This document shows, piece by piece, positions 533-22,579 of a stretch of 22,579 bases of DNA. The DNA is from an uncultured bacterium (lineage in GTDB: Bacteria > Lernaellota > Lernaellaia > Lernaellales > Lernaellaceae). The notes under the pieces were generated by a model. That model was not told the DNA's origin, did not search any database, and saw only the letters and a program-made list of their open reading frames with translations. Position 1 is the first letter of the stretch. Each line of letters starts with the position of its first letter. The stretch is from NCBI GenBank assembly GCA_964534375.1, contig CAZHPN010000090.1, positions 1 to 22,579 of the forward strand, read 5' to 3'. The position numbers were made by a program, and so were the translations under genes.

Positions 533-1975
533 TCATCGTCGCCAGAACAGCAAGCGGCGCCAACCAGGCGCCGTTGGCGGTTCGTTGCACGGCTTGCCGT
601 CGTAGTGGAGGATGCCCCGATTGTCGCTGCCCGTCGCATAGACATCGCCGGACGGCAAACAAATCACGGAAGTGAGGGGTTTTTCCTGCCCCGAATCGAT
701 CGGTCGCCACTTGCGGTCGCGCCCGTAATGGAGAATCGGCGCCCTCAGCGGAAAGTAGCCGTCGCCGACCGCGTAAATGTCCGTCGCCGAGGACCCGGAA
801 ATGGCTCTGAAACTACATTTGTCCGTGCCGCGGATCTCGGCGGCGGCGCTTTCGGCCATTGGTCCAAGCTGACGGCCAATCCACGAGTAGTCGTCAAAAT
901 GCTTATACAATCTCAGAAATAGTGTCGCCGCCCACGCCCACCGCGGGGTCGGATACCGCAAATGTGCGTCGCGGACGAAATTGGGGTATTCCTGCTGTTC
1001 CGGAGTTTTCACTGCCTTCCATTTTTTCCCGTCGTAGTGGACGATGCCGGGGCCGACGATGTAGACGTCCGACGCGGACGATCCCCAAATTCCAATTCCG
1101 CCTACGTACTCCACAAGCGCCAAGGTTTCGTTCCCAACAATCTGCGACCAAGTCGAACCATCGTAGTGAAGAACCTCGCCTCGTGCTGGTTCGAAGAACG
1201 AATCAAAGTCGGGAGAGACGATGGAGCCGACGGCGTACACATCATGCCCGGAGGAGCCCCACACCGCGGCCAACTCTTCGTTATCGCTGCGGCTTTGCAT
1301 GACCGACCAACTCCCGCCATCGAAATGCATTACGAATGATCCGCCCACCGCGAAAACGTCCGATGCCGACGCCCCCCAGATCGCCCTAAGTTCCGCTGGG
1401 AGAAAAACGCCCTCGTGCATCACTTCCTCGCGTCCAGAGTGTTTTATTATTTTGCCAATAACTTGCCATGCCGTTCCGTCGAAATGTACAATCGCCGAAC
1501 CGACCCCCCAGACATCGGAGGCCGACGAACCCCAAAGCGCCCAGATCGGGGCGTCGTCCAGCCAAAGCGACCGCGACCATTCCGACCCGTCATAATGCAA
1601 AATTATCGTCCGGTACCCGAAACTCCCAACGACAAAAACATCGTTTCGGCTGGACGCCCACACCGCGTACAAATCTGTGTACCTCCGTAACGGGCCGTCG
1701 CCGGGCGCCTCTTCGCGCCACCCCCCCGCTCTGCACAACGGAAGAGCGTGGTGAATCTCAAGCCTCTCCATGACGTCCTCGCGTTCCTTCGCTGCGTCAC
1801 GCCACCCGTCCGCCGGCGAACATGCCGAAAAAATGTGAGGCACAATGACCGCGATCAGTGCGCACAACGAACACCGCCGAAAAGCGACAATCCGCGGCGC
1901 CGCATCAGCGCAACGACTTTCGACATTCGCTATGCGGCGCTCTTCGCCAGCCATTTTCGCGCACTCCGTGTCCAT
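533..1975 (-). CDS. Membrane-anchored or exported beta-propeller repeat protein, 7 'WGSSxxDVyAVG...IxHYDG..W' repeats (480 aa)
   Basis: ATG at 1975 overlaps the TAA of the upstream paralog (TAATG). Hydrophobic N-terminal segment LCALIAVIVPHIFSAC, then seven ~40-aa repeats, ending PCNEPPTAPGWRRLLFWRR. The ORF-track start at 2062 lies inside the upstream gene. Confidence 0.8.
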   Translation of the reverse strand: MDTECAKMAGEERRIANVESRCADAAPRIVAFRRCSLCALIAVIVPHIFSACSPADGWRDAAKEREDVMERLEIHHALPLCRAGGWREEAPGDGPLRRYTDLYAVWASSRNDVFVVGSFGYRTIILHYDGSEWSRSLWLDDAPIWALWGSSASDVWGVGSAIVHFDGTAWQVIGKIIKHSGREEVMHEGVFLPAELRAIWGASASDVFAVGGSFVMHFDGGSWSVMQSRSDNEELAAVWGSSGHDVYAVGSIVSPDFDSFFEPARGEVLHYDGSTWSQIVGNETLALVEYVGGIGIWGSSASDVYIVGPGIVHYDGKKWKAVKTPEQQEYPNFVRDAHLRYPTPRWAWAATLFLRLYKHFDDYSWIGRQLGPMAESAAAEIRGTDKCSFRAISGSSATDIYAVGDGYFPLRAPILHYGRDRKWRPIDSGQEKPLTSVICLPSGDVYATGSDNRGILHYDGKPCNEPPTAPGWRRLLFWRR

Positions 1976-3078
1976 TAATGTCGCCAGAACAGCAAGCGTC
2001 GCCAACCTTGCGCCGCTGGCGGTTCGTTGCACGGCTTGCCGTCGTAATGGAGGATGCCCCAACTACCGCCTCCGACCGCATATGCGGCCCCCGACGGCAA
2101 ACAAAAGACAGACCCGAGGCCTATTTCTTGTCCCGAATCGATTGTTCGCCATTTGTGGTCGCGCCCGTAATGTAGAATCGGCGCCCTCAACGGGAAGCCA
2201 GCTTCGCCGACCACGTAAATGTCCGTCGCCGACGACCCCGAAATGGCCATGAAAAGCGGGCCGCCGTTCCCGTCGTCAATCGCCGTGGCCGCAATTCTGG
2301 CCGCCGGTCTTAGCCAACGCCTAATCGATGTTTCGGAGACAGCATTGTATAAGCGCAGGAAAGGCTTCGCGACCCAATCAACCGTGGGAAACGGCAAATG
2401 CGCATCGCGAAAGACACTCGGATATCTGTGTATCTTCGGCGTGTCCGCCGACGTCCATCTTCTCCCGTCGTAATGGACGATTCCTTGCCCGATGATGAAT
2501 ATGTCCGACGCTGAGATCCCCCAGATGGCCGAAAGGCCAGCCAAATTGCTCTTGTTCACCTGCTCGTCGGGTTCGGCCATTTCTTCTAAATTACCCGCAA
2601 CGGTATGCCATTCCTTTCCGTTGTAATGCGCAATCGCCGCACCGACCGCCCAGACATCCGACGGAGACGAACCCCAAACGGCGCTGATTCCGAATTCTCT
2701 CGTTGCAAACGACGTCAGCCATTCCGAGCCGTCAAAACGCTGAATTATTGCGTCCTTTGCTTGGCGGCCGACGACATACACGTCGTTTGGGCTCGCCGCC
2801 CACACCTTGTATAGTTTACGATAACCAGGCAATTCCCTACGCTACCCCCCGGCTCTGCACAACGGAAGACCGTCGTGCGTTTCAAGATCGTACAATTCGT
2901 GCCACCTTTTCTTCGCCGCCTCGTACGGAATCGTCCCGACCGCAACTGCCCCAAGAACAAATACCAGAAACAATGCGGTCAGTACGCCAACGGATCGTCG
3001 AAATACGTTCGGCCGCGGTCCCGACGGGTCGGCGCGGTATCTGCGGAAGTCCGCACCGTCTGGCTTCTCGTGAGTCAT
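1975..3078 (-). pseudogene. Paralogous beta-propeller repeat gene (5 repeats) interrupted by an in-frame TAG
   Basis: ATG 3078 with SD AAGGAG; TM segment VGVLTALFLVFVLGAVAVG. Reads LPLCRAGG-TAG(2842-2844)-RRELPGYRKLYKVW in one frame, where the paralog reads LPLCRAGG-W-REE. ORF-track pieces 2842..3129 and 1975..2832 are in the same frame. Confidence 0.75.
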
Positions 3079-6241: not shown

Positions 6242-6401
6242 CGACCGTCTCCTTGCGGAATGGCAGCGGTTAACGTGGATGTATACCCGCAAAGCCTTTC
6301 CGCCCGCAAGAAGAAAATGGCGAAAAAACGCCGGCGGGCCTTTACCTTTGGCGGCAAGTTGTAGTCGAATGAAAAAAGGCAGTGCGCGGGGAGAGGAAAC
6401 G

Positions 6402-7280
6402 ATGAAAAAACGGGCATTCTGGGCGCTGGCCGCGGTTCTCGTCGCCGCGGTTTCGGCCGGGGCGTCGCCGTTCAACGAGACGGTCAAACGCTCGCCGATG
6501 CAGCAGGCCCACCACGAAATCGCCATCTTGAATCTGGTCAACGGCCTGGAGATGGACGCCAAGCAGCAGCACGCGTTGCTCGACCTTGCCGAAAAGGCCA
6601 AGGCCATGCGCGCGGAATACCGCCAGCGGGAAGCGGCCCTCGCGAGCGAGGCGACGCCGGCGTACCGGGCGCTCGAAGCGCAGTTGCTGCAGGGCCATCC
6701 GGCGGACTCCGCGACCGAAAAACGCGCGCAGGAAGTCAAGAACCGCCAGCGCGAACTGGAGCTGCAATACGACAAGGACCTGGCCGCGCTGGTCGAGAAT
6801 GTGAAGCAAATGATGTCGCCCGGCCAGTTGGACATCATCAAGAACTACAGCTCGTGCCTGATCCCGCCGAAGGATCTGCGCGATCCGTCGCGCGTCGGCC
6901 AGGCCAACGACGGCTCGCAAATCGAACACGTGATGGAGCGAATCCGCAAAGCGCCGCCGGCCTTCCAGAGCGCCGGCATCGATAAATTTCTCGAGCGCCA
7001 CACGGAAGAGATTCGCCGGCTCTACCCGGACGGCAACCTTGAGGCCGAGGCCGCCGAGCGCGCCCGCGTGCGGGCGCTGTTCGAAAAGGCCTGCCGTATG
7101 AACGACGCTGACTTCGCACTGAATCGCGCGCAGTTGGCGGACGAAATCTACAAGCCCTACGCCGATTTCAAGGCCGCCCATCGCGCGAAGAACCCCTGGT
7201 TCAACGTCGAGCATTTCCTGCTCGACGACGCCACGCCCGACCTGCTGCAAAAGCGCTTGGCGAAAGCCAGTGGCCACTGA
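6402..7280 (+). CDS. Secreted alpha-helical hypothetical protein (292 aa)
   Basis: ATG 6402 after GAGAGG. Sec-type signal MKKRAFWALAAVLVAAVSAGA; coiled-coil-like composition; host-like codon usage; stop overlaps the start of the radical SAM gene. Confidence 0.8.
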   Translation: MKKRAFWALAAVLVAAVSAGASPFNETVKRSPMQQAHHEIAILNLVNGLEMDAKQQHALLDLAEKAKAMRAEYRQREAALASEATPAYRALEAQLLQGHPADSATEKRAQEVKNRQRELELQYDKDLAALVENVKQMMSPGQLDIIKNYSSCLIPPKDLRDPSRVGQANDGSQIEHVMERIRKAPPAFQSAGIDKFLERHTEEIRRLYPDGNLEAEAAERARVRALFEKACRMNDADFALNRAQLADEIYKPYADFKAAHRAKNPWFNVEHFLLDDATPDLLQKRLAKASGH

Positions 7281-8424
7281 GCTTGCCGACGGCGGGCCGG
7301 CGAGCTTCCGGCTGAGCCGCCGCTGTTTCCTCGGTTGCCTGGCCAGCGCCGCCGCCGGCGCGACGCTCGCGCCGCTGCCGGCCTGGGCCAAGACCGTGCT
7401 GCCGCGGGCGCTGCCCGAGGGCGCCGAGGCGCCGTTTTACCAGCGCCTGGCCGACGGCCGCGTCGCCTGCCAGGCCTGCCCGTGGGGCTGCGAACTCGGC
7501 CCCGGCGAGACCAGCCGCTGCCGCGCCAAGGCCAACCGCGACGGCAAGCTGGTCGAGTTGGATTACGGCCTGCCGTGCGTGATCAATCTCGATCCGATCG
7601 AAAAGGGGCCGCTGTTCCATTTTCACCCGGGCGAAACCTCGCTGGCGCTGGGCGGTGCCGGCTGCAACCTCGCCTGCCAGTACTGCCAAAATTGGCAGGT
7701 TTCGCAAAAAGGCGCGTGGGAAACCAAGAACATCGACATGCCGGTCGCGCGGTGCAGTTCCGCGGCCAAAGAAAAAAAGTGCCGCGCGGTCACGTTCACC
7801 TATACCGAGCCGGCCGTCGAATTGCGTTATGCGACCGACGTCTTCGCCGCGGCGCGCCGCCACGGGTTGTACACGCATGCGGTCAGCGCGGTGTTCCTGC
7901 ACGCGAAACCGATGCGCCTGCTGTGCGAAAAGGCCGACGCCTTCAGCGCGGCGCTCAAGGGCTTCGACGAGGCGTTCTACCGCGACGTCGTCGGCGGCGA
8001 GCTGGCGCCGGTGCTGACGGCGCTGACGACGATTCGCGAGAGCGGCGCCTGGCTGGAAATAGTCACGCTCGTCGTGCCGGGGATGAACGACCAGCCGGCG
8101 ACGATCGGCAAGATGGCGAAATGGATCGTGCAAAATCTCGGCGCCGACACCCCGCTGCACCTGACGCGCTTCGTGCCCGAATATCGCCTGCAAAAACTGC
8201 CGCGCACCTCGATCGAGACGCTCGAGGCCGGCTGGAAGGCCGCGCGCGACGCCGGGCTGCGGTTCGTCTACCTAGGCAACGTGCCCGGCCACAACGCCGA
8301 AAACACCTTCTGCCCTTCGTGCCAGACGCGGCTCGTTGCGCGCCTTGGCTTCAAGTTGCTGGAAAATCGCGTGCAAAACGGCAAATGTCCCACGTGCGGC
8401 GCGGCGATTCCGGGCAAATGGTGA
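7270..8424 (+). CDS. amrS: AmmeMemoRadiSam-type radical SAM enzyme with twin-arginine (Tat) signal peptide (384 aa)
   Basis: CNLACQYC (Cx3Cx2C), N-terminal CQACPWGC...CR, DPIEKGPLFHFHPG, FTYTEP, PLHLTRFVPEY, FVYLGNVPG, C-terminal CPSC/CPTCG. N-terminus SRRCFL + hydrophobic stretch + AWA. GTG start is tentative. Confidence 0.88.
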   Translation: MATELADGGPASFRLSRRCFLGCLASAAAGATLAPLPAWAKTVLPRALPEGAEAPFYQRLADGRVACQACPWGCELGPGETSRCRAKANRDGKLVELDYGLPCVINLDPIEKGPLFHFHPGETSLALGGAGCNLACQYCQNWQVSQKGAWETKNIDMPVARCSSAAKEKKCRAVTFTYTEPAVELRYATDVFAAARRHGLYTHAVSAVFLHAKPMRLLCEKADAFSAALKGFDEAFYRDVVGGELAPVLTALTTIRESGAWLEIVTLVVPGMNDQPATIGKMAKWIVQNLGADTPLHLTRFVPEYRLQKLPRTSIETLEAGWKAARDAGLRFVYLGNVPGHNAENTFCPSCQTRLVARLGFKLLENRVQNGKCPTCGAAIPGKW

Positions 8425-8532: not shown

Positions 8533-9675
8533 ATGACCAGCCGGAAATATTTTACCTTGACCGTGTCGCGCCGGGCCGTCTTCATCGTGGCGGCGGTCTG
8601 CGGCGGGCTCGTCGTCGCCTTGGGCGGCGTCGAGATCCTCGTCCGCACGTTCGCCGGGGCCGCGTTGGCGGCCGACGCGCCGCGCCTGAAACTCGAAGGG
8701 ACCGATTTCTACGCCCTGACCTACGACGGCGAACTCGGCTGGAAGAACACGCCCGGCCTCGAAGCGCTGGTGGTCCGCGACCGCAAAATTGAAATTCGCC
8801 ACGATTCGCACGGTTTTCGCAACGACGAGGTCGCCGAAAAGAAACCGGCCGACGTTTATCGCATCGTCATTCTTGGCGACTCGGTCGCCTGGGGGTGGGG
8901 CGTCGATCAAGGCGACGTCTACTCGGCGCTGCTGGCCCAGCGGTTGAACGAACGGCGCGCCGTCGGGAAGAGATTCGAGGTCGTCAACGCCGCCGTCTCC
9001 GGCTACGGCACGGCCCAGGAGTTGCTGCTCTTCCGGCGCATCGCCGCCTGGGCCAAACCCGACCTGGTCCTGCTGCACTATTTCGACAACGACGTCGGCG
9101 ACAACTGCGGCACATGGGATTACGGGGCGGCGCGGCCGGTGCTGGTTCCCTTCGACGGCACGTGGCTGGTGAAGAACACGCCGTGCCCGCTACGCCTGCC
9201 GAAACCGCGCGAACCGGCGCGCCTGCTGCGGCCGGCGGCCGGTTTGTGGCGCGCGGCGTCGTACCGGCTGCTCGTGTTCCGCTCGCTCAACCGTCCGGGG
9301 CTCGCGCGGTTCTTCGGCCGGCTCGGATGGTGGTCGATCGAGCCGGATACGTCGATCCGCTTGGGCGGGTCCAGTTGCATCCCCGCGACGATCGGCTTGA
9401 TCCGCCGCCTGAACGACGAGGCGCGGGCTGCCGGCGCGAATTTCGCGGTCGTGTTCGACGCGCGGCAAGACAACGTCGCCGCGGGCATCGCCGACCTGGC
9501 CTGCCTCGATTTGTACCCCGAATTCGTCCGGCGCAACCTGCGCGCGAGCGATATCCGCATTCCGGGCAGCCTCGGCCATTTTTCGCCCGCCGGCCATCTA
9601 TTGATGGCCGATCTCGTCGGCGATTTCCTGACCGCGCGCGGGTTCGTCGCGCCAACCCCGGAAAAACAGCCGTAG
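8533..9675 (+). CDS. SGNH/GDSL hydrolase family protein, N-terminally membrane anchored (380 aa)
   Basis: TM segment AVFIVAAVCGGLVVALGGVEILVR; block I ILGDSVAWG; block II NAAVSGYGT; block III FDND; block V GHFSPAGH. Confidence 0.85.
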   Translation: MTSRKYFTLTVSRRAVFIVAAVCGGLVVALGGVEILVRTFAGAALAADAPRLKLEGTDFYALTYDGELGWKNTPGLEALVVRDRKIEIRHDSHGFRNDEVAEKKPADVYRIVILGDSVAWGWGVDQGDVYSALLAQRLNERRAVGKRFEVVNAAVSGYGTAQELLLFRRIAAWAKPDLVLLHYFDNDVGDNCGTWDYGAARPVLVPFDGTWLVKNTPCPLRLPKPREPARLLRPAAGLWRAASYRLLVFRSLNRPGLARFFGRLGWWSIEPDTSIRLGGSSCIPATIGLIRRLNDEARAAGANFAVVFDARQDNVAAGIADLACLDLYPEFVRRNLRASDIRIPGSLGHFSPAGHLLMADLVGDFLTARGFVAPTPEKQP

Positions 9676-9848: not shown

Positions 9849-12143
9849 GTGACAGACTCCCGATCCGGCCCTGCGGTCTCCCCGGCCGAACAGCCGCCGT
9901 CGCCGGACGCGGCGACGCCCGAAAAACCGCCGTCGTGGCTCGTGGTGGTGCTGCGCGAGCCGGATTCCGTCATCGTCGTTTTTGCGCTGGCGTGGCTGAC
10001 GCTCGCCGTCGGCCCGCTGGTCGCGCTGATCCAAACGCGCGAGAGCGCGCTGCTTTCCGCGCGTTTCTTCGGCGAAGCGGCCTGGCTCTTGGTTTTTCTC
10101 GTCGGCTGGTGCGCGGCCGGTTTGGCGGCGGCGGCGGCGCGCGCGCGCGTCGTCACGTGGCTGCGTTCGTCGCCGGTGTGGGGCTGGGTCTTGGCGGGCC
10201 TGATTCCGTTTTTCCTGCTGTGGGCGCGCGAACGCGTGGGCGGCCGCGGCATGACGCTGCTGTTTCGCGGCGCGGCTTGGACGGCGGCGGTCCTGCTTCT
10301 CTACAGCGTCACGATTCTCTATCGCGAACATCGCGCGGCCGTACGGGCGCTGGACGACCGTTTTGGGCCGGGGAATCGGTCGTTCACCGCGTTTTTCGCC
10401 GTGCCGGCGATCACAACCGTCGTGTTCTACCTGGCGGCGCTGCGCTACGACGCCGTGTTTCTCGCGGTGCGCCTCGTGCCGCCGGTTTTCGTCGTGGACC
10501 TCGCGTTGCAGTTTCTGGTCGGATGCGCGCTGTTTGCATTCGCGCGGCGCGTTTCGCTATTCGCCGTCGCCCAGTTGCTGCTGATCGGCATGCTGTACGT
10601 CGGCAACGCCGTGAAAATCAACTACGTCAACGAACCGCTGATGCCCCACGACCTGTACCTGCTGAAAGAACTCTACTGGATCCTGCCGCTCCAGCAGTTT
10701 CTTCTGGCAGCCGGGCCGGCGGCGCTGTTCGTCGCGATTTTCTTGGTGAATTTTCACTATTTCAAAAAGGCCAGTTCCGTCAGCGTGGTGGTGATTGCGG
10801 CGCTCGTCGCGACGATTCGCTACGACCCGGGCCGGCTGCTGCGGCCGCTCGACAGAATGTTTCGCCCGTACTTTACGGAGCTCATCGTCGAGCAGCGCGA
10901 ACGCGGCGTCAGCGTTTTTCTGCTCGACCGCATCGCGCGCGTCAGCGCGCATCGGCCGCAGGCGCCGACGCGGGAGCAGGTGCGCGAGAACCTGGAGCGC
11001 CTGGGAAAGACGGCGGGCCCGCCGGCGGCAGCGTTGCGCTGGCCCGCGGCGCCGCGCAACGTGTACGTGATCCTGGTCGAATCGATGTGGGACCCGGAAT
11101 TCCTGCGGAATTTCCGATTTTCGGAGCCGCCGTTTTATCCGCCGCTGGGCGATCTGTGGCGGGAGGGCGGCCAATCGACGGCGTTCAGCCCGAATTTCGC
11201 CGGCGGAACCAGCGACTCGGAGTACGAGTTGCTCTGCGGCATGCCCGATTGGTTCGACATGGCGCCGTTCATCTTTTTCCAGGAAAACGACATGCCGTGC
11301 CTGCCGCGCATTTTCGGCGCGGCCGGCTACGACGCGGTCGCGTTTCATCCGCATTTCCCGGCCTTTTTCAACCGGCAGCGCACCTATCCCAAAATCGGGT
11401 TCCAAAGGTTCTACAGCATGAGTTCGTTCAAGGGCGACGACGTCGACGGCGTACGGCTGGCGGATTCGTCGCTTTACCGGCAGGCGGCGAAACTGCTGGA
11501 ACGCGAACGCCGGCCGCCGTATTTCGCGTTCATTCTGACCTTCGCCAGCCACGACCCCTACGTGCTCAACCGCCAGCGCCGGCCGTCGTTCATTCGCAGC
11601 GAACCGGACAACGAGTTGGTGCGCGGGTATGCCAACCGCATCCGGTACACGACCAAGGAAACGTACGATTTCGTCGAGCAGACGGTCGCCGTCGACCCGG
11701 ACGCGCTGATCGTCGTCGTCGGCGACCACGTGCCGCCGCTCGGCTACGAAAACTACGGGCGGCGCGATCTGTTCGACGTGAAAGAGGTGCGGCCGACGCT
11801 GAAAGAAAACACGACGCCGCAAATGTTCGAGCCGCCGCTGATCGTGCTCAACGGGCGGGCGGGGCCGGTTCGCCTGGGCCAGGTGAATATGCACGAACTG
11901 CCGTCGATCATTTTGAAATTGCTCGGCGTCGAACAAAATTCGTGGTTTGACGATTTCACGCCGCCCGGCGCGTACCGGGTGTTCACGGCGTTCGACGCGC
12001 AGATGATCTGGCGCCCCGACGGAACCGTGCGGCAATGCACCGCCGCCGACCCGGATTGCGGGCAATTCCGCCGCTGGAAAGAAACCGTCCGGCCGCTGGT
12101 CGCCGACATTTTATTCGGCGGGCAGTACGCTTTCGGCCAATGA
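9849..12143 (+). CDS. LtaS/OpgB-like alkaline-phosphatase-superfamily (sulfatase-like) membrane protein (764 aa)
   Basis: Multiple N-terminal TM helices, then NVYVILVES, GGTSDSEYE (nucleophile Thr), FHP..FFNR, SHDPY, VVGDHVP. GTG start is tentative. Confidence 0.88.
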   Translation: MTDSRSGPAVSPAEQPPSPDAATPEKPPSWLVVVLREPDSVIVVFALAWLTLAVGPLVALIQTRESALLSARFFGEAAWLLVFLVGWCAAGLAAAAARARVVTWLRSSPVWGWVLAGLIPFFLLWARERVGGRGMTLLFRGAAWTAAVLLLYSVTILYREHRAAVRALDDRFGPGNRSFTAFFAVPAITTVVFYLAALRYDAVFLAVRLVPPVFVVDLALQFLVGCALFAFARRVSLFAVAQLLLIGMLYVGNAVKINYVNEPLMPHDLYLLKELYWILPLQQFLLAAGPAALFVAIFLVNFHYFKKASSVSVVVIAALVATIRYDPGRLLRPLDRMFRPYFTELIVEQRERGVSVFLLDRIARVSAHRPQAPTREQVRENLERLGKTAGPPAAALRWPAAPRNVYVILVESMWDPEFLRNFRFSEPPFYPPLGDLWREGGQSTAFSPNFAGGTSDSEYELLCGMPDWFDMAPFIFFQENDMPCLPRIFGAAGYDAVAFHPHFPAFFNRQRTYPKIGFQRFYSMSSFKGDDVDGVRLADSSLYRQAAKLLERERRPPYFAFILTFASHDPYVLNRQRRPSFIRSEPDNELVRGYANRIRYTTKETYDFVEQTVAVDPDALIVVVGDHVPPLGYENYGRRDLFDVKEVRPTLKENTTPQMFEPPLIVLNGRAGPVRLGQVNMHELPSIILKLLGVEQNSWFDDFTPPGAYRVFTAFDAQMIWRPDGTVRQCTAADPDCGQFRRWKETVRPLVADILFGGQYAFGQ

Positions 12144-20467: not shown

Positions 20468-20537
20468 GCATTCCGCATTCCGCATTCGGCATTCCGCATT
20501 CCGCATTCGGCACTTCGCATTCGGCATTCCGCATTTG
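20468..20537. repeat. Ten 7-bp tandem repeats GCATTC(C/G)
   Basis: GCATTCC-GCATTCC-GCATTCG-GCATTCC-GCATTCC-GCATTCG-GCACTTC-GCATTCG-GCATTCC-GCATTTG. Confidence 0.95.
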
Positions 20538-20569: not shown

Positions 20570-22579
20570 ATGGTCAATAATCGCGGGATGTCCAACGGCG
20601 CGAGGGCGGTCGAACGCGCCAAACCGCGCCATTTCCGGCGTTTTCTGCGCGGCTCGTTCGACCACTACAGCACGATCCTGCACGGCCGCTTCAGTTGGCT
20701 GCTCGACCGCATTTTTCAGTTCTTCTTCGGCCACGTCTCGTTCAGCGACGCGGACCGTGCGGAGATCCAACGCGCCGCGGAAAAGGGCGCGCTGTGCTAT
20801 GTCATCCGCAGCCCGAGCCGGCTCGATTATCTGCTGCTCTCGTACAAGTTGCGCCGCGAAGGCCTGCCGTATCCGCAGTTCTGCCATTACATGTCGGTTT
20901 TCTTGTGGCAGCCGTGGACGACCGCGTTGCGGCGCGTCGTCGGCGTGATCGTCAGTTTTTTCGAGCGGCAGGGGTATCCGAATCCGTACACTAACGGTTT
21001 CGTCGAGGAGTTGGCGGCGAATCGGATTCCGATGCTGCTGCCGCTGCACAGTTTCGGCGGCCTGCCGTGGCGCTTTTCGCGCGGGCGGCGCGGTTTCGAC
21101 CCGTTGCAGGAGTTGATGCGGATTCGGCGGGAGACCGAGCGCGCGATCATCATGGCGCCGCTGGTGACGATTTACGGCCGCCGCCCGGATCGGGAAACCC
21201 GCACCATGCTGGATATGCTCGCCGGCCCGTCGGACAACCCCGGCCGGCTGCGCCGCTTCTGGATGTTCCTGACCAATCGCAAACATATTTACGTCAAGGC
21301 CGCGCAGCCGCAGAGCTTGGAGGACCTCGAGGAAGCGGTCGGCATGAAGGTGCCGGCGATGGTCGATCCGGAGCCGGAAACCGCCTATCACATCCGCCAG
21401 ACGCTGCTGGAGCGGATCGAGACCGAACGCCGCATCGTGCTGGGGCCGGCGCGGAAAAGCCGGGCGGAAATGATTGAAATGGTGCTGCACGACCGCGGCT
21501 TCCTGGCCTCGCTCATGGAGTACTGCAAGAAGAACAACGAGCCGTTTATCGAGACCCGCCGCCGCGCACGCCGCTATCTCGAAGAAATGGCCGCCGATCT
21601 GCGCCCGCGGGCGCTCGGCTTCCTGCGGTTCGTGCTCGACCGCCTGCTGCCGCGCCTCTACCAGGGTCTCGAGGTCGATGTCGCGGGCCTGGAACAGGTC
21701 CGCCGCGTGCTGCGGCAGATGCCCGTCGTCTTCGTGCCCTCGCACAAGAGCCACGTCGACTATTTGATTCTCGGCTACGTCCTCGACCAGCAGCAGGCGC
21801 CGCAGCCGCTGACCGTCGCCGGCATCAACCTCAATTTTTGGCCGATCGGCCCGCTCTTTCGCGGCGCCGGCGCGTTTTTCATCCGGCGCTCGTTCCGCGG
21901 CAAACGCATTTATTCGCTGTGCCTGACGAAATACCTGGAAGCCGTCCTGCGCGAGGGCCTGAGCGTCACCTTTTTCGTCGAGGGCGGCCGCAGCCGCATC
22001 GGCAAACTGCTGCCGCCGAAAACCGGTTTCCTGCAATATCTGCTGCAAGCCGCGGCAGGCGCGAACCGCACCGAGGTCGCCTTCGTGCCGGTGTCGATCA
22101 GTTACGAGCGAATTTTCGAGGAGCGCTTCTACACCAACGAGGCCGCCGGCAAGCCCAGCGAGGGCGAGAACCTCGGCACGATGATCCGCCACCGGCGGCT
22201 GCTCGCCAAATCGCGCGGCCGCGTCTGGATCGATTTCTGCAAGCCGATCCTGCTGGGCGACATGCTCTGGAACCAGGGCGGGGCCGGCTCCGACGACGAA
22301 CGCCGGCGCGACGTGGCCACTACGATCGCCCACCGCGTGGTGCATGCCATCAACGAACGCCAACCGGTGACGGCCTACGCCGTCGCCGCCGAGGCGCTGC
22401 TGGCCGGCGCCCGGCGCGGCGTGCCCGCGGAAACGGTGAGCCGCCGCTGCGATCTGCTGACCGAGTACCTGGCCGACGCCGGCGCGGTCATGCCCGAAAA
22501 CCAGGTCGGCCTGGGCACGATCCTCGCGGCGATGGTCGCCGAAAAATCGCTCACGTTCGAAGAAGACGACACGGGCGAG
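20570..22579 (+). CDS. plsB: Glycerol-3-phosphate O-acyltransferase (PlsB family), 5' part, runs off the window
   Basis: Not in the ORF track because there is no stop in the window. Frame from ATG 20570 (or 20588) contains VPSHKSHVDY (HxxxxD), AGINLNFWPIG, GAFFIRRSF, FFVEGGRSRIGKLLPPKTG, VPVSISYERIFE. Confidence 0.9.
   Translation, partial: MVNNRGMSNGARAVERAKPRHFRRFLRGSFDHYSTILHGRFSWLLDRIFQFFFGHVSFSDADRAEIQRAAEKGALCYVIRSPSRLDYLLLSYKLRREGLPYPQFCHYMSVFLWQPWTTALRRVVGVIVSFFERQGYPNPYTNGFVEELAANRIPMLLPLHSFGGLPWRFSRGRRGFDPLQELMRIRRETERAIIMAPLVTIYGRRPDRETRTMLDMLAGPSDNPGRLRRFWMFLTNRKHIYVKAAQPQSLEDLEEAVGMKVPAMVDPEPETAYHIRQTLLERIETERRIVLGPARKSRAEMIEMVLHDRGFLASLMEYCKKNNEPFIETRRRARRYLEEMAADLRPRALGFLRFVLDRLLPRLYQGLEVDVAGLEQVRRVLRQMPVVFVPSHKSHVDYLILGYVLDQQQAPQPLTVAGINLNFWPIGPLFRGAGAFFIRRSFRGKRIYSLCLTKYLEAVLREGLSVTFFVEGGRSRIGKLLPPKTGFLQYLLQAAAGANRTEVAFVPVSISYERIFEERFYTNEAAGKPSEGENLGTMIRHRRLLAKSRGRVWIDFCKPILLGDMLWNQGGAGSDDERRRDVATTIAHRVVHAINERQPVTAYAVAAEALLAGARRGVPAETVSRRCDLLTEYLADAGAVMPENQVGLGTILAAMVAEKSLTFEEDDTGE

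What the first reader, a model, noticed from the sequence alone, without database searches (positions are those of the whole stretch)
6402..8424. Tat-exported radical SAM enzyme paired with a secreted partner instead of the usual AmmeMemo genes
Seen: the AmrS-like enzyme starts with SRRCFL, a hydrophobic stretch and an AWA cleavage site, keeps Cx3Cx2C and both auxiliary Cys clusters, and overlaps a Sec-secreted protein gene. No AMMECR1 (AmrA) or MEMO (AmrB) gene is in the window. Some usual motifs look altered (SAVF where TNGY is typical, SAALKGF where NIDLKGF is typical). Established: Tat exports folded cofactor-loaded proteins; radical SAM enzymes need SAM and a low-potential reductant and are generally cytoplasmic. 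Inference: a two-gene extracytoplasmic module, either periplasmic radical chemistry on the partner or envelope, or an Fe-S protein repurposed for redox or sensing. This is the best candidate for an undescribed system here, although I recall Tat-like leaders on some other AmrS homologs.
Basis: partly seen in the sequence, partly recalled or inferred. Interest (0 to 1): 0.75.

Follow-up and report, generated by a model that had tools for sequence, protein, structure and literature searches.

The report
Exported radical SAM enzyme with helical partner
Two overlapping genes encode an iron-sulfur "radical SAM" enzyme with a twin-arginine export signal and a secreted helical protein of unknown family, a pairing that recurs in unrelated bacteria and suggests this normally cytoplasmic chemistry also works outside the inner membrane.

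Summary
Gene 7270-8424 encodes an AmrS-family radical SAM enzyme (TIGR04337, 321 bits against a cut-off of 220). It has a 40-residue SRRCFLG...AWA leader and overlaps by 11 nt a gene (6402-7280) for a signal-peptide protein with no family match.

The Tat-type leader is not special to this gene: 79 of 120 top homologues carry an RR motif. The window has no AMMECR1 or Memo gene, but the genome has a signal-bearing Memo-AMMECR1 fusion and two more AmrS paralogues elsewhere.

What stands out is the pairing:
- Relatives of the partner sit directly beside an AmrS gene in 12 of 17 metagenome loci and 2 of 9 genome loci, often overlapping by 4-11 nt.
- All linked AmrS genes fall in one clade of 32 of 152 sequences (support 0.90).
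- The partner family (1252 clusters) is all-helical. It has an invariant Cys...Gly-Gln loop that is modelled as flexible.

Best reading: a minimal two-gene extracytoplasmic module whose chemistry is unknown. This scan found a three-gene form of the cassette before, on other DNA (e1-3105880). No paper I could search describes it. The complex prediction could not be run.

The parts
6390..6397 (+). Shine-Dalgarno-like GGAGAGGA, 4 nt before the partner's ATG
   Evidence: read from the sequence
6402..7280 (+). partner gene: 292-aa secreted all-helical protein of an unnamed family (P0001)
   Evidence: No Pfam or NCBIfam family over cut-off. The family profile finds 1252 clusters at E<=0.001. AF2 model has pLDDT 85.6 and is all-alpha.
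6402..6464 (+). predicted Sec-type signal peptide (residues 1-21, A-G-A then S)
   Evidence: inspection only. 128 of 147 family representatives have a hydrophobic N-terminus.
6513..6581 (+). conserved helix HEIAILNLVNGL..Q (LTXXQ-like); N47, G48, L49 and Q55 are invariant
   Evidence: alignment A2. Pfam LTXXQ is weak in 4 of 18 members, best E 0.0061, and does not hit P0001 itself.
6843..6914 (+). conserved loop, residues 148-171, with invariant C152, P155 and G166 and near-invariant Q167: C-L-I-P-P-K-D-L-R-D-P-S-R-V-G-Q
   Evidence: The 16-residue form occurs in 125 of 151 family proteins. Low pLDDT (50-69) in the AF2 model.
7270..8424 (+). AmrS-family radical SAM enzyme gene (P0002, 384 aa, GTG start), overlapping the partner's end by 11 nt
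   Evidence: TIGR04337 321.3 bits against 220. AF2 pLDDT 94.1. Best solved fold is PFL-AE 3cb8_A, E 2.3e-12, TM 0.81 on the target.
7270..7389 (+). Tat-type leader, residues 1-40; RR at 7318-7323, AWA at 7381-7389
   Evidence: Conserved in the orthologue. Lies outside the family model. Low pLDDT and not packed on the core.
7396..7398 (+). only alternative in-frame start (GTG, codon 43), downstream of the leader
   Evidence: the codon is GTC in orthologue L013, so it is unlikely to be the real start
7468..7521 (+). N-terminal cysteine group C67, C70, C74, C84
   Evidence: invariant, or at least 90% conserved, in 109 sequences
7663..7686 (+). radical SAM Cx3Cx2C (C132, C136, C139)
   Evidence: invariant; Pfam Radical_SAM 58.9 bits
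7885..7896 (+). SAVF in place of SNG[YF]; the lost Asn aligns with PFL-AE Asn106
7945..7965 (+). SAALKGF in place of [KN][IV]DLKGF; the lost Asp aligns with PFL-AE Asp129; the Lys (K230) is kept
   Evidence: Asp129 is a ligand of the active-site K+ that also touches the SAM carboxylate (PMC10267522, passages).
8311..8397 (+). C-terminal four-cysteine ribbon C348, C351, C373, C376
   Evidence: invariant; weak Pfam DZR match

Best explanation
This is the minimal, two-gene form of an operon that pairs a distinct branch of the AmrS (AmmeMemoRadiSam-type, PFL-activase-like) radical SAM family with a secreted helical protein.

Shown:
- The genes are tightly coupled.
- The pairing recurs in distant lineages.
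- All linked enzymes belong to one clade, marked by loss of an Asn and an Asp at the SAM/cation site.
- Enzyme and partner both carry export-type N-termini.

Inferred:
- The enzyme folds and receives its Fe-S clusters (and possibly SAM) in the cytoplasm.
- It is exported folded by Tat and its leader is cut after AWA. The partner arrives separately through Sec.
- Outside the membrane the enzyme acts on, or together with, the partner. The likeliest target is the partner's invariant, flexible Cys152...Gly166-Gln167 loop, much as PFL activase takes a loop of its protein substrate into its active site.

The chemistry, the electron donor and the source of SAM are unknown.
For: Coupling:
- The window genes overlap by 11 nt, as in L013.
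- L017, L018 and L028 have 4-nt overlaps. L019, L062 and L063 have gaps of 2-12 nt. L016 and L014 have gaps of at most about 50 and 115 nt.

Recurrence:
- An AmrS hit lies beside the partner homologue on the same strand in 12 of 17 metagenome loci. That count includes the window's own contig L012 and the odd L015.
- The same holds for 2 of 9 loci from 401 species genomes.
- Flanking genes differ from locus to locus. None of 30 flanking ORFs is Memo or AMMECR1.

Clade:
- 32 of 152 AmrS sequences lack the Asp and form an exact clade, SH-like support 0.90.
- It holds the window gene and all 6 full-length linked enzymes. The Memo-AMMECR1-linked L038 and L041 fall outside.
- The two further linked enzymes, in G290 and G369, also lack the Asp.

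Export signals:
- An RR motif is present in 8 of 8 linked AmrS that have an N-terminus and in 28 of 32 clade members. The other 4 are short gene calls.
- The leader is conserved as coding sequence.
- The genome has two TatC genes.
- 128 of 147 partner-family representatives have a signal-like N-terminus.
- Two partner paralogues (L017, L022) carry CxxCH. Haem c is attached outside the cytoplasm (textbook knowledge).

Loop as target:
- C152, P155 and G166 are invariant in 18 sequences.
- The 16-residue motif occurs in 125 of 151 proteins.
- The loop is the only low-confidence stretch inside an otherwise confident helical model.
- The nearest solved fold of the enzyme is PFL-AE bound to a peptide substrate.

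Co-inheritance: enzyme and partner distances correlate over 8 linked loci, r = 0.81, reached by 1 of 5000 permutations. Two close pairs drive this, and shared descent alone would give the same result.
Against: - No source of SAM or of a low-potential reductant is known outside the cytoplasm (established knowledge).
- The Tat-signal HMM TIGR01409 scores 13.8 bits, below its 16.7 cut-off. No dedicated predictor was available.
- Some family members have hydrophobic leaders without RR. These would not suit export of a folded Fe-S protein.
- The partner family is wider than the pairing. Seven of 9 genome loci, and L023, L025 and L027 with about 4 kb on each side, have no AmrS nearby.
- Six of 10 genomes with a partner-family gene have no Asp-less AmrS at all.
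- Loss of the Asp that in PFL-AE helps bind the K+/SAM carboxylate could mean altered or lost SAM chemistry.
- No binding, modification or localisation data exist.
- RNA-library contigs cover only two short pieces of the partner gene.
Confidence: 0.5

Rival explanations
1. Cytoplasmic maturase. The enzyme modifies the partner's loop in the cytoplasm before the partner leaves through Sec. Anaerobic sulfatase maturases work this way, as do the HxsB/HxsC radical SAM enzymes that mature the signal-peptide effector HxsA. The RR leader would then be a membrane-targeting, proofreading or vestigial element and would not drive export of the enzyme.
For: - A precedent exists: the HXS system matures a signal-bearing effector in the cytoplasm and then exports it (PMC13128918, abstract and passages).
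- SAM and reductants are cytoplasmic.
- TIGR01409 is below its cut-off.
Against: - The leader has the full RR, hydrophobic stretch and AxA layout, is kept in 28 of 32 clade members, and evolves as coding sequence.
- The precedent enzymes have no such leader, as far as the passages I read say.
- The Memo-AMMECR1 partners of sister clades also carry signals, here on C237. That argues for a shared outside location.
Confidence: 0.2
2. The module is exported, but the partner is not the substrate. The helical LTXXQ-like protein would serve as a chaperone, scaffold or docking and electron-relay subunit, and the enzyme would act on something else in the envelope, such as a lipid, a cell-wall or polyamine-like compound, or another protein.
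For: - Four of 18 partner relatives weakly match LTXXQ, the CpxP/Spy family of periplasmic chaperones and sensors.
- The partner family also occurs without the enzyme.
- In L017, L018 and L026 a large membrane protein with a spermidine-synthase-like domain follows the pair.
- Some partner paralogues carry CxxCH.
Against: - An invariant Cys...Gly-Gln loop in a flexible region is more typical of a modification or cofactor site than of a chaperone surface.
- The window module has no third gene of this kind. The genome's only homologue is unlinked and 30% identical (C26).
Confidence: 0.2
3. Repurposed Fe-S protein. The Asp-less clade no longer cleaves SAM and serves outside the cell as a redox or sensing Fe-S protein bound to the partner.
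For: The clade has lost both the Asn and the Asp that align with PFL-AE Asn106 and Asp129. Asp129 is a ligand of the K+ that contacts the SAM carboxylate.
Against: - Cx3Cx2C, the Glu aligned to the GGE motif (E180) and Lys230 stay invariant or nearly so across the 109 sequences.
- The core is modelled with pLDDT above 96 as a PFL-AE-like barrel.
- Many radical SAM enzymes lack this cation site (recalled, not tested here).
Confidence: 0.07
4. Chance neighbours. The enzyme works with the Memo-AMMECR1 fusion encoded on contig C237, and the adjacent gene is unrelated.
For: The genome holds one Memo-AMMECR1 fusion but three AmrS paralogues. In this family of genomes amrS is not next to Memo-AMMECR1 anyway: 0 of 7 leader-type loci from same-family relatives.
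Against: - The adjacency recurs in 14 loci from unrelated contexts, often with overlapping reading frames.
- It is confined to one enzyme clade.
- Relatives of the same family have only the other two paralogues, and none of 7 has the partner. The pair therefore came and goes together.
Confidence: 0.03

Closest known systems
AmmeMemoRadiSam system (NCBIfam TIGR04337 radical SAM enzyme with AMMECR1-like and Memo-like proteins); function not established
   Same: The enzyme scores well over the TIGR04337 cut-off (321 against 220). It has the same three cysteine groups. As in many members, it carries an RR leader (79 of 120).
   Different: - It is not next to Memo or AMMECR1 here or in any of the linked loci examined.
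- It belongs to a separate clade that lost the conserved Asn and Asp.
- It is paired with an unrelated helical protein.
Pyruvate formate-lyase activating enzyme (PFL-AE, PDB 3CB8) and other glycyl-radical activases
   Same: PFL-AE is the best solved fold (E 2.3e-12, TM 0.81 on the target) and the best PDB sequence-profile match. It is a radical SAM enzyme that takes a flexible loop of a protein (RVSGY) into its barrel. The partner's loop ends in R-V-G-Q.
   Different: - Activase models score far below their cut-offs (PFLA 49.5 against 231.75).
- The window enzyme has extra N- and C-terminal cysteine domains and an export leader.
- It lacks the Asp129 equivalent.
- The partner is a 290-aa helical protein and does not have a glycyl-radical enzyme barrel.
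- The loop motif is one residue shorter than RVxG[FWY] (that consensus is recalled).
Cytoplasmic radical SAM maturation of exported proteins: the HXS anti-phage system (HxsB/HxsC acting on HxsA) and anaerobic sulfatase maturases
   Same: A radical SAM enzyme is encoded beside a signal-peptide protein that may be its protein substrate (PMC13128918, abstract and passages).
   Different: - There the enzymes act in the cytoplasm; here the enzyme itself carries an export leader.
- There is no SPASM domain.
- PADLOC gives no defence-system match: nothing for the partner and only a weak pVip hit for the enzyme (E 0.0039).
LTXXQ family (Pfam PF07813: CpxP, Spy and ZraP periplasmic helical chaperones and sensors)
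   Same: Both are secreted and all-helical. The partner has an N-terminal N-G-L-x-L-[ST]-x-x-Q motif, and 4 of 18 relatives give weak hits (best E 0.0061).
   Different: - P0001 itself gives no hit.
- The partner is about twice the size.
- It has an invariant Cys...Gly-Gln loop that I do not recall in CpxP or Spy.
- No solved structure matches above the level usual for helical proteins (Foldseek none at E<=0.001; VIA best Z 8.0).
   Same: It has the same kind of enzyme and the same kind of helical partner. I found the three-gene form in L017, L018 and L026.
   Different: - The window has the short (292 aa) partner and no third gene.
- It is followed instead by GDSL-like and sulfatase-like membrane protein genes that are not part of the conserved unit.

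Membership tests
AmmeMemoRadiSam radical SAM enzyme (TIGR04337) | whole-protein score over the curated cut-off | tested here: met
   321.3 bits against 220, residues 56-384; all 109 aligned homologues also match
AmmeMemoRadiSam radical SAM enzyme (TIGR04337) | Cx3Cx2C plus the N-terminal and C-terminal cysteine groups | tested here: met
   C132/C136/C139, C67/C70/C84 and C348/C351/C373/C376 are invariant; C74 is at least 90% conserved
AmmeMemoRadiSam radical SAM enzyme (TIGR04337) | gene neighbourhood with AMMECR1-like and Memo-like genes (the system's name-giving context) | tested here: not met
   - None in the window.
- None among 30 flanking ORFs of related loci.
- The genome's only AMMECR1 is on C237, fused to Memo.
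AmmeMemoRadiSam radical SAM enzyme (TIGR04337) | family-typical SNG[YF] and [KN][IV]DLKGF motifs | tested here: not met
   SAVF and SAALKGF. The Asp is missing in 32 of 152 sequences, which form one clade.
Twin-arginine (Tat) signal peptide | S/T-R-R-x-F-L-K-like motif, an uncharged h-region and an AxA cleavage site at the N-terminus | tested here: met
   S-R-R-C-F-L-G, then 22 uncharged residues, then A-W-A. Read by eye, not by SignalP or TatFind.
Twin-arginine (Tat) signal peptide | match to the curated Tat-signal model TIGR01409 | tested here: inconclusive
   13.8 bits against a 16.7 cut-off, E 0.057, residues 15-40
Twin-arginine (Tat) signal peptide | Tat translocase present in the organism | tested here: met
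   two TatC genes over the cut-off (C79, C174)
Twin-arginine (Tat) signal peptide | Tat-dependent export of the protein | not testable with these tools
   needs fractionation or reporter fusions with an RR-to-KK control
Glycyl-radical enzyme activases (TIGR02493, TIGR02494 and others) | score over the model cut-offs | tested here: not met
   PFLA 49.5 against 231.75; PFLE_PFLC 38 against 174.35
SPASM/twitch peptide-modifying radical SAM enzymes | C-terminal SPASM domain | tested here: not met
   no SPASM family among Pfam hits at E<=0.1
LTXXQ family (PF07813), for the partner | match to the Pfam model | tested here: inconclusive
   No hit for P0001 at E<=1. Four of 18 relatives hit weakly, best E 0.0061.

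The most novel reading that the evidence does not exclude
A radical SAM enzyme that really works outside the cytoplasm. It would be exported by Tat with its clusters and a bound SAM, and would carry out a stoichiometric or SAM-recycling radical modification of the invariant Cys...Gly-Gln loop of a Sec-exported helical protein. That would be the first extracytoplasmic radical SAM protein-modification system, and the first concrete substrate for any AmrS-type enzyme.
Probability: 0.25. Interest if true: 0.9.

Novelty: new variant of a known kind. Interest (0 to 1): 0.68.

Why it matters
Radical SAM enzymes are treated as strictly cytoplasmic, and the widespread AmrS/AMMECR1/Memo system has no known function, although its animal homologues are linked to disease.

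This locus offers a small experimental handle on both questions: two genes, one enzyme and one candidate protein partner with a single invariant loop. It could be used to test whether the enzyme is exported, whether it still cleaves SAM, and what it does to the partner.

The analysis also defines two groups that have no name in the libraries searched:
- an Asp-less AmrS clade;
- a secreted helical family of about 1250 sequence clusters.

Tried and rejected
- **Complex prediction.** It was never accepted because the queue was full. The last try got no usable answer. There is therefore no result on binding.
- **Fold of the partner.** Foldseek against PDB gave nothing at E<=0.001. VIA wide gave a best Z of 8.0, which is generic for helical models. 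A PDB sequence profile gave nothing. The Atlas returned only unnamed clusters.
- **PDB search with the enzyme sequence alone.** No hit. The alignment profile was needed.
- **Co-occurrence of the partner family with AmrS across genomes.** All 10 genomes with the partner have AmrS, but so do 286 of 401 genomes. The test is uninformative.
- **Tat-signal count through NCBIfam on the alignment.** TIGR01409 was not among the 25 families listed, so no count was obtained.
- **A stricter rule of my own** (RR followed by at least 12 uncharged residues). It missed obvious leaders and I dropped it.
- **Expression.** Two metatranscriptome runs hold one contig each, both inside the partner gene (6404-6566 and 6814-6964). 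None covers the enzyme. This shows neither transcription nor silence.
- **A wrong recollection.** I first recalled PFL-AE Asp129 as a ribose ligand. The paper I could read says it binds the active-site K+, and I corrected this.
- **Promoters and terminators.** None of note between or after the two genes.
- **Other scans.** Rfam, tRNA and PADLOC gave nothing relevant.
- **L015.** A single frame joins a partner N-terminus to an AmrS C-terminus. I take it for an assembly artefact or a deletion and draw nothing from it.
- **Papers not held.** Vey et al. 2008 and Burroughs et al. 2019 could not be read.
Full report
**1. What is there**

The window is contig C90 of a 6.3-Mb, 381-contig genome bin, 94% complete. 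DNA runs that hold the stretch are labelled wetland and peat metagenomes.

Two genes on the + strand are divergent from dapA/dapB:
- The first runs from ATG 6402 to 7280 and has a GGAGAGGA box 4 nt upstream. It encodes 292 aa with a hydrophobic, signal-like N-terminus.
- The second starts at GTG 7270, inside the last codons of the first, and ends at 8424.

The second product is a clear AmrS-family radical SAM enzyme:
- TIGR04337 scores 321.3 bits against a cut-off of 220, over residues 56-384.
- Pfam Radical_SAM scores 58.9 bits.
- All three cysteine groups are conserved.
- Residues 1-40 lie outside the family model and read S-R-R-C-F-L-G, then 22 uncharged residues, then A-W-A.

**2. Is the leader real?**

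- The only other in-frame start is GTG at codon 43. In the 76%-identical orthologue on L013 that codon is GTC, while an upstream ATG gives the same leader.
- Of 26 leader codons, 15 are identical, 6 differ synonymously and 5 differ conservatively. This ratio is much like that of the mature part, 54/28/25 of 107.
- The AF2 model (pLDDT 94.1) leaves residues 1-50 at low confidence and off the core.
- The genome has two TatC genes.
- The curated Tat-signal model is just under its cut-off (13.8 against 16.7 bits), so by HMM alone the case is inconclusive.

**3. The leader is a family trait**

- Of the 120 best homologues, 79 have an RR-x-hydrophobic motif ahead of the first cysteine group. Many of the rest are short gene calls or have other hydrophobic leaders.
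- In the larger set the count is 28 of 32 in the window's clade and 76 of 120 outside it.
- Earlier notes of this scan reported the same for other genomes.
- My literature searches found no paper that describes an exported radical SAM enzyme or says what AmrS does. The searches were 'AmmeMemoRadiSam' (6 incidental papers), radical SAM with twin-arginine and periplasmic (14 papers), AMMECR1 with Memo and radical SAM (1 paper), radical SAM with 'Tat signal' (8 papers) and 'periplasmic radical SAM' (0 papers). I judged these from listings and the passages I read.
- Burroughs et al. 2019, the main comparative paper on Memo/AMMECR1 systems, is not held, so I cannot say what it states about signals.

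**4. The rest of the genome**

There are three AmrS paralogues:
- C135 scores 383 bits and has the leader KRREFLFASAGAACALAAGC.
- The window gene.
- C138 has no hydrophobic leader.

There is one Memo-AMMECR1 fusion of 527 aa with a signal-like N-terminus on C237, and a lone Memo on C79.

The seven relatives of the same family each have only the C135-type, the C138-type or both. None has the partner. The window pair is thus an extra, patchily distributed module. In the whole phylum sample of 17 genomes, only G000 and G012 hold a partner homologue.

**5. The pairing**

The word-index search found only three relatives of the partner. An alignment-based scan of metagenome contigs then gave 17 loci.
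- In 12 of the 17, tblastn finds an AmrS gene directly beside the partner on the same strand, upstream or downstream, sometimes with two partner paralogues. The 12 include the window's own contig and the odd L015.
- Of the 5 without, L021 and L024 are too short to tell. L023, L025 and L027 have about 4 kb on each side and truly lack it.

These loci were found with patterns from the window's closest relatives, so they are a biased sample. In an unbiased sample of 401 species genomes:
- The family occurs in 10.
- Of 9 new loci, only 2 (G369, G290) have AmrS adjacent.

Junctions are tight (the outer bounds for L014 and L062 come from the ORF starts):
- 11-nt overlaps in the window and L013;
- 4-nt overlaps in L017, L018 and L028;
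- gaps of 2-12 nt in L019, L062 and L063;
- gaps of at most about 50 and 115 nt in L016 and L014.

Flanking genes are unrelated from locus to locus and include no Memo or AMMECR1 (0 of 30 ORFs).

**6. The linked enzymes are one clade**

I built a FastTree of 152 AmrS sequences:
- 119 database hits;
- the window gene and its two paralogues;
- 6 linked enzymes;
- 24 from the phylum. L040 was left out because it has an internal stop.

Results:
- The 32 sequences that lack the Asp of [KN][IV]DLKGF form an exact clade with SH-like support 0.90.
- P0105 has Asn at that position and sits elsewhere, so it was set aside.
- The clade contains the window gene and all six linked enzymes. The two Memo-AMMECR1-linked enzymes lie outside.
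- The two linked enzymes found later (G290, G369) and an enzyme on a short contig of G012 also lack the Asp.

In a profile alignment to PFL-AE, the lost Asn and Asp align with Asn106 and Asp129, and the kept Lys with Lys131. In PFL-AE, Asp129 is one of the ligands of the active-site K+, which also binds the SAM carboxylate (PMC10267522, section 8 passages).

The 'altered motifs' are therefore a clade signature at the SAM/cation site, not noise. Whether they change or abolish SAM cleavage cannot be told from sequence.

**7. The partner family**

- A profile of 18 members finds 1252 clusters at E<=0.001 and 649 at E<=1e-30 among 1.84 billion representatives.
- No member tested matches a Pfam family over its cut-off. 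Four of 18 hit LTXXQ (CpxP/Spy) weakly.
- Of the 147 best representatives, 128 have a signal-like N-terminus and 132 have C-x-x-P-[PA].
- Invariant residues are N47, G48, L49, Q55, Q142, C152, P155 and G166.
- The loop C-[LF]-[IV]-P-P-x-[DN]-[LF]-x-[ND]-P-x-R-[VA]-G-Q has its 16-residue form in 125 of 151 proteins.
- The AF2 model (pLDDT 85.6) is all-helical. This loop is its only internal low-confidence stretch.
- No solved fold stands out.
- In the partner tree, most unlinked members form one clade with a shortened loop. Linked members keep the full loop.
- Subtypes exist: about 290 aa (the window), about 467 aa followed by a membrane spermidine-synthase-like protein (L017, L018, L026), and about 570 aa duplicated forms. 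Two paralogues carry CxxCH.

**8. How it most likely works**

Shown: a conserved, translationally coupled pair, a clade-specific enzyme, and export-type N-termini on both proteins.

Inferred:
- The enzyme is exported folded by Tat and the partner by Sec.
- They interact outside the membrane.
- The partner's loop is the site of action.

The last point rests on three things. The enzyme's nearest structural relative is PFL activase, solved with a substrate peptide in its barrel. The partner's loop is invariant and flexible. Aravind's group has predicted that radical SAM domains related to the Memo-AMMECR1 type act in peptide-processing systems (PMC7159879, one passage).

A coupled 1:1 pair would fit an enzyme that carries a single SAM out with it, but this is speculation.

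Rivals are cytoplasmic maturation before export (precedent: the HXS system), the partner as an accessory and not a substrate, a repurposed Fe-S protein, and chance adjacency. Recurrence makes the last very unlikely.

**9. Verdict**

The Tat leader alone is a known family trait within this scan. A three-gene form of this cassette was noted before on other DNA (e1-3105880).

The window adds four things:
- the minimal two-gene form;
- the link between the pairing and an Asp-less enzyme clade;
- the definition of the partner family and its invariant loop;
- the limits of the association.

No experiment or complex model supports binding or export yet.

Noticed in passing
window 533-2062 (-) and 1975-2832 (-): Two tandem paralogous genes for repeat proteins, with recurring ...VWGSSxSDVYxVG...ILHYDG..W units. 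Neither has a Pfam match. Both end in the same tail, ILHYDGKPCNEPP..GWRRLLFWR. The region has lower G+C (0.57-0.61) than the rest of the window.
   Followed up: partly
G000 C138 (locus L003 373-3845) and C135 (locus L001 1586-2725): The leaderless AmrS paralogue on C138 is followed by a membrane-anchored GDSL-like protein, 36% identical over 98 aa to the one after the window's AmrS (8533-9675). Proteins beside the C138 and C135 paralogues carry motifs that look like formylglycine-generating-enzyme (sulfatase-modifying) domains. That reading is by eye only, with no family scan.
   Followed up: partly
window 8533-9675 and 9849-12143: Downstream of the pair lie a GDSL-like lipase/acylhydrolase with an N-terminal membrane anchor and a 764-aa multi-pass membrane protein with a sulfatase-type (LtaS-like) domain. 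Neither is part of the conserved module in other loci.
   Followed up: partly
loci L025 and L027: Two partner-family genes without an AmrS neighbour sit between an amino-acid permease gene and nrdD (anaerobic ribonucleotide reductase, a glycyl-radical enzyme) in both contigs.
   Followed up: no
locus L014 7611-8402 (-): A SAM hydroxide adenosyltransferase (DUF62-type) gene lies 1.6 kb from a linked AmrS-partner pair. This was seen once only, so it may be chance.
   Followed up: no
proteins P0057, P0058, P0085, P0101, P0106, P0110: A subgroup of Asp-bearing AmrS homologues has an N-terminal extension with a CxxCH haem-c-type motif after the leader.
   Followed up: no
proteins P0013-P0017: Some AmrS homologues have a lipoprotein-like leader (...FMVAC) without RR. 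That is hard to reconcile with export of a folded Fe-S protein.
   Followed up: no
window 20468-20535: A heptamer GCATTCC is repeated 9.7 times just upstream of the PlsB-like acyltransferase gene at 20570.
   Followed up: no
locus L015 617-1036: One reading frame joins a partner N-terminus (74% identical) to the last 24 residues of an AmrS. This is either a deletion variant or an assembly chimera.
   Followed up: no
G000 C26:32385-34583: The genome holds an unlinked 768-aa homologue, 30% identical, of the membrane spermidine-synthase-like protein that follows the pair in L017, L018 and L026.
   Followed up: no
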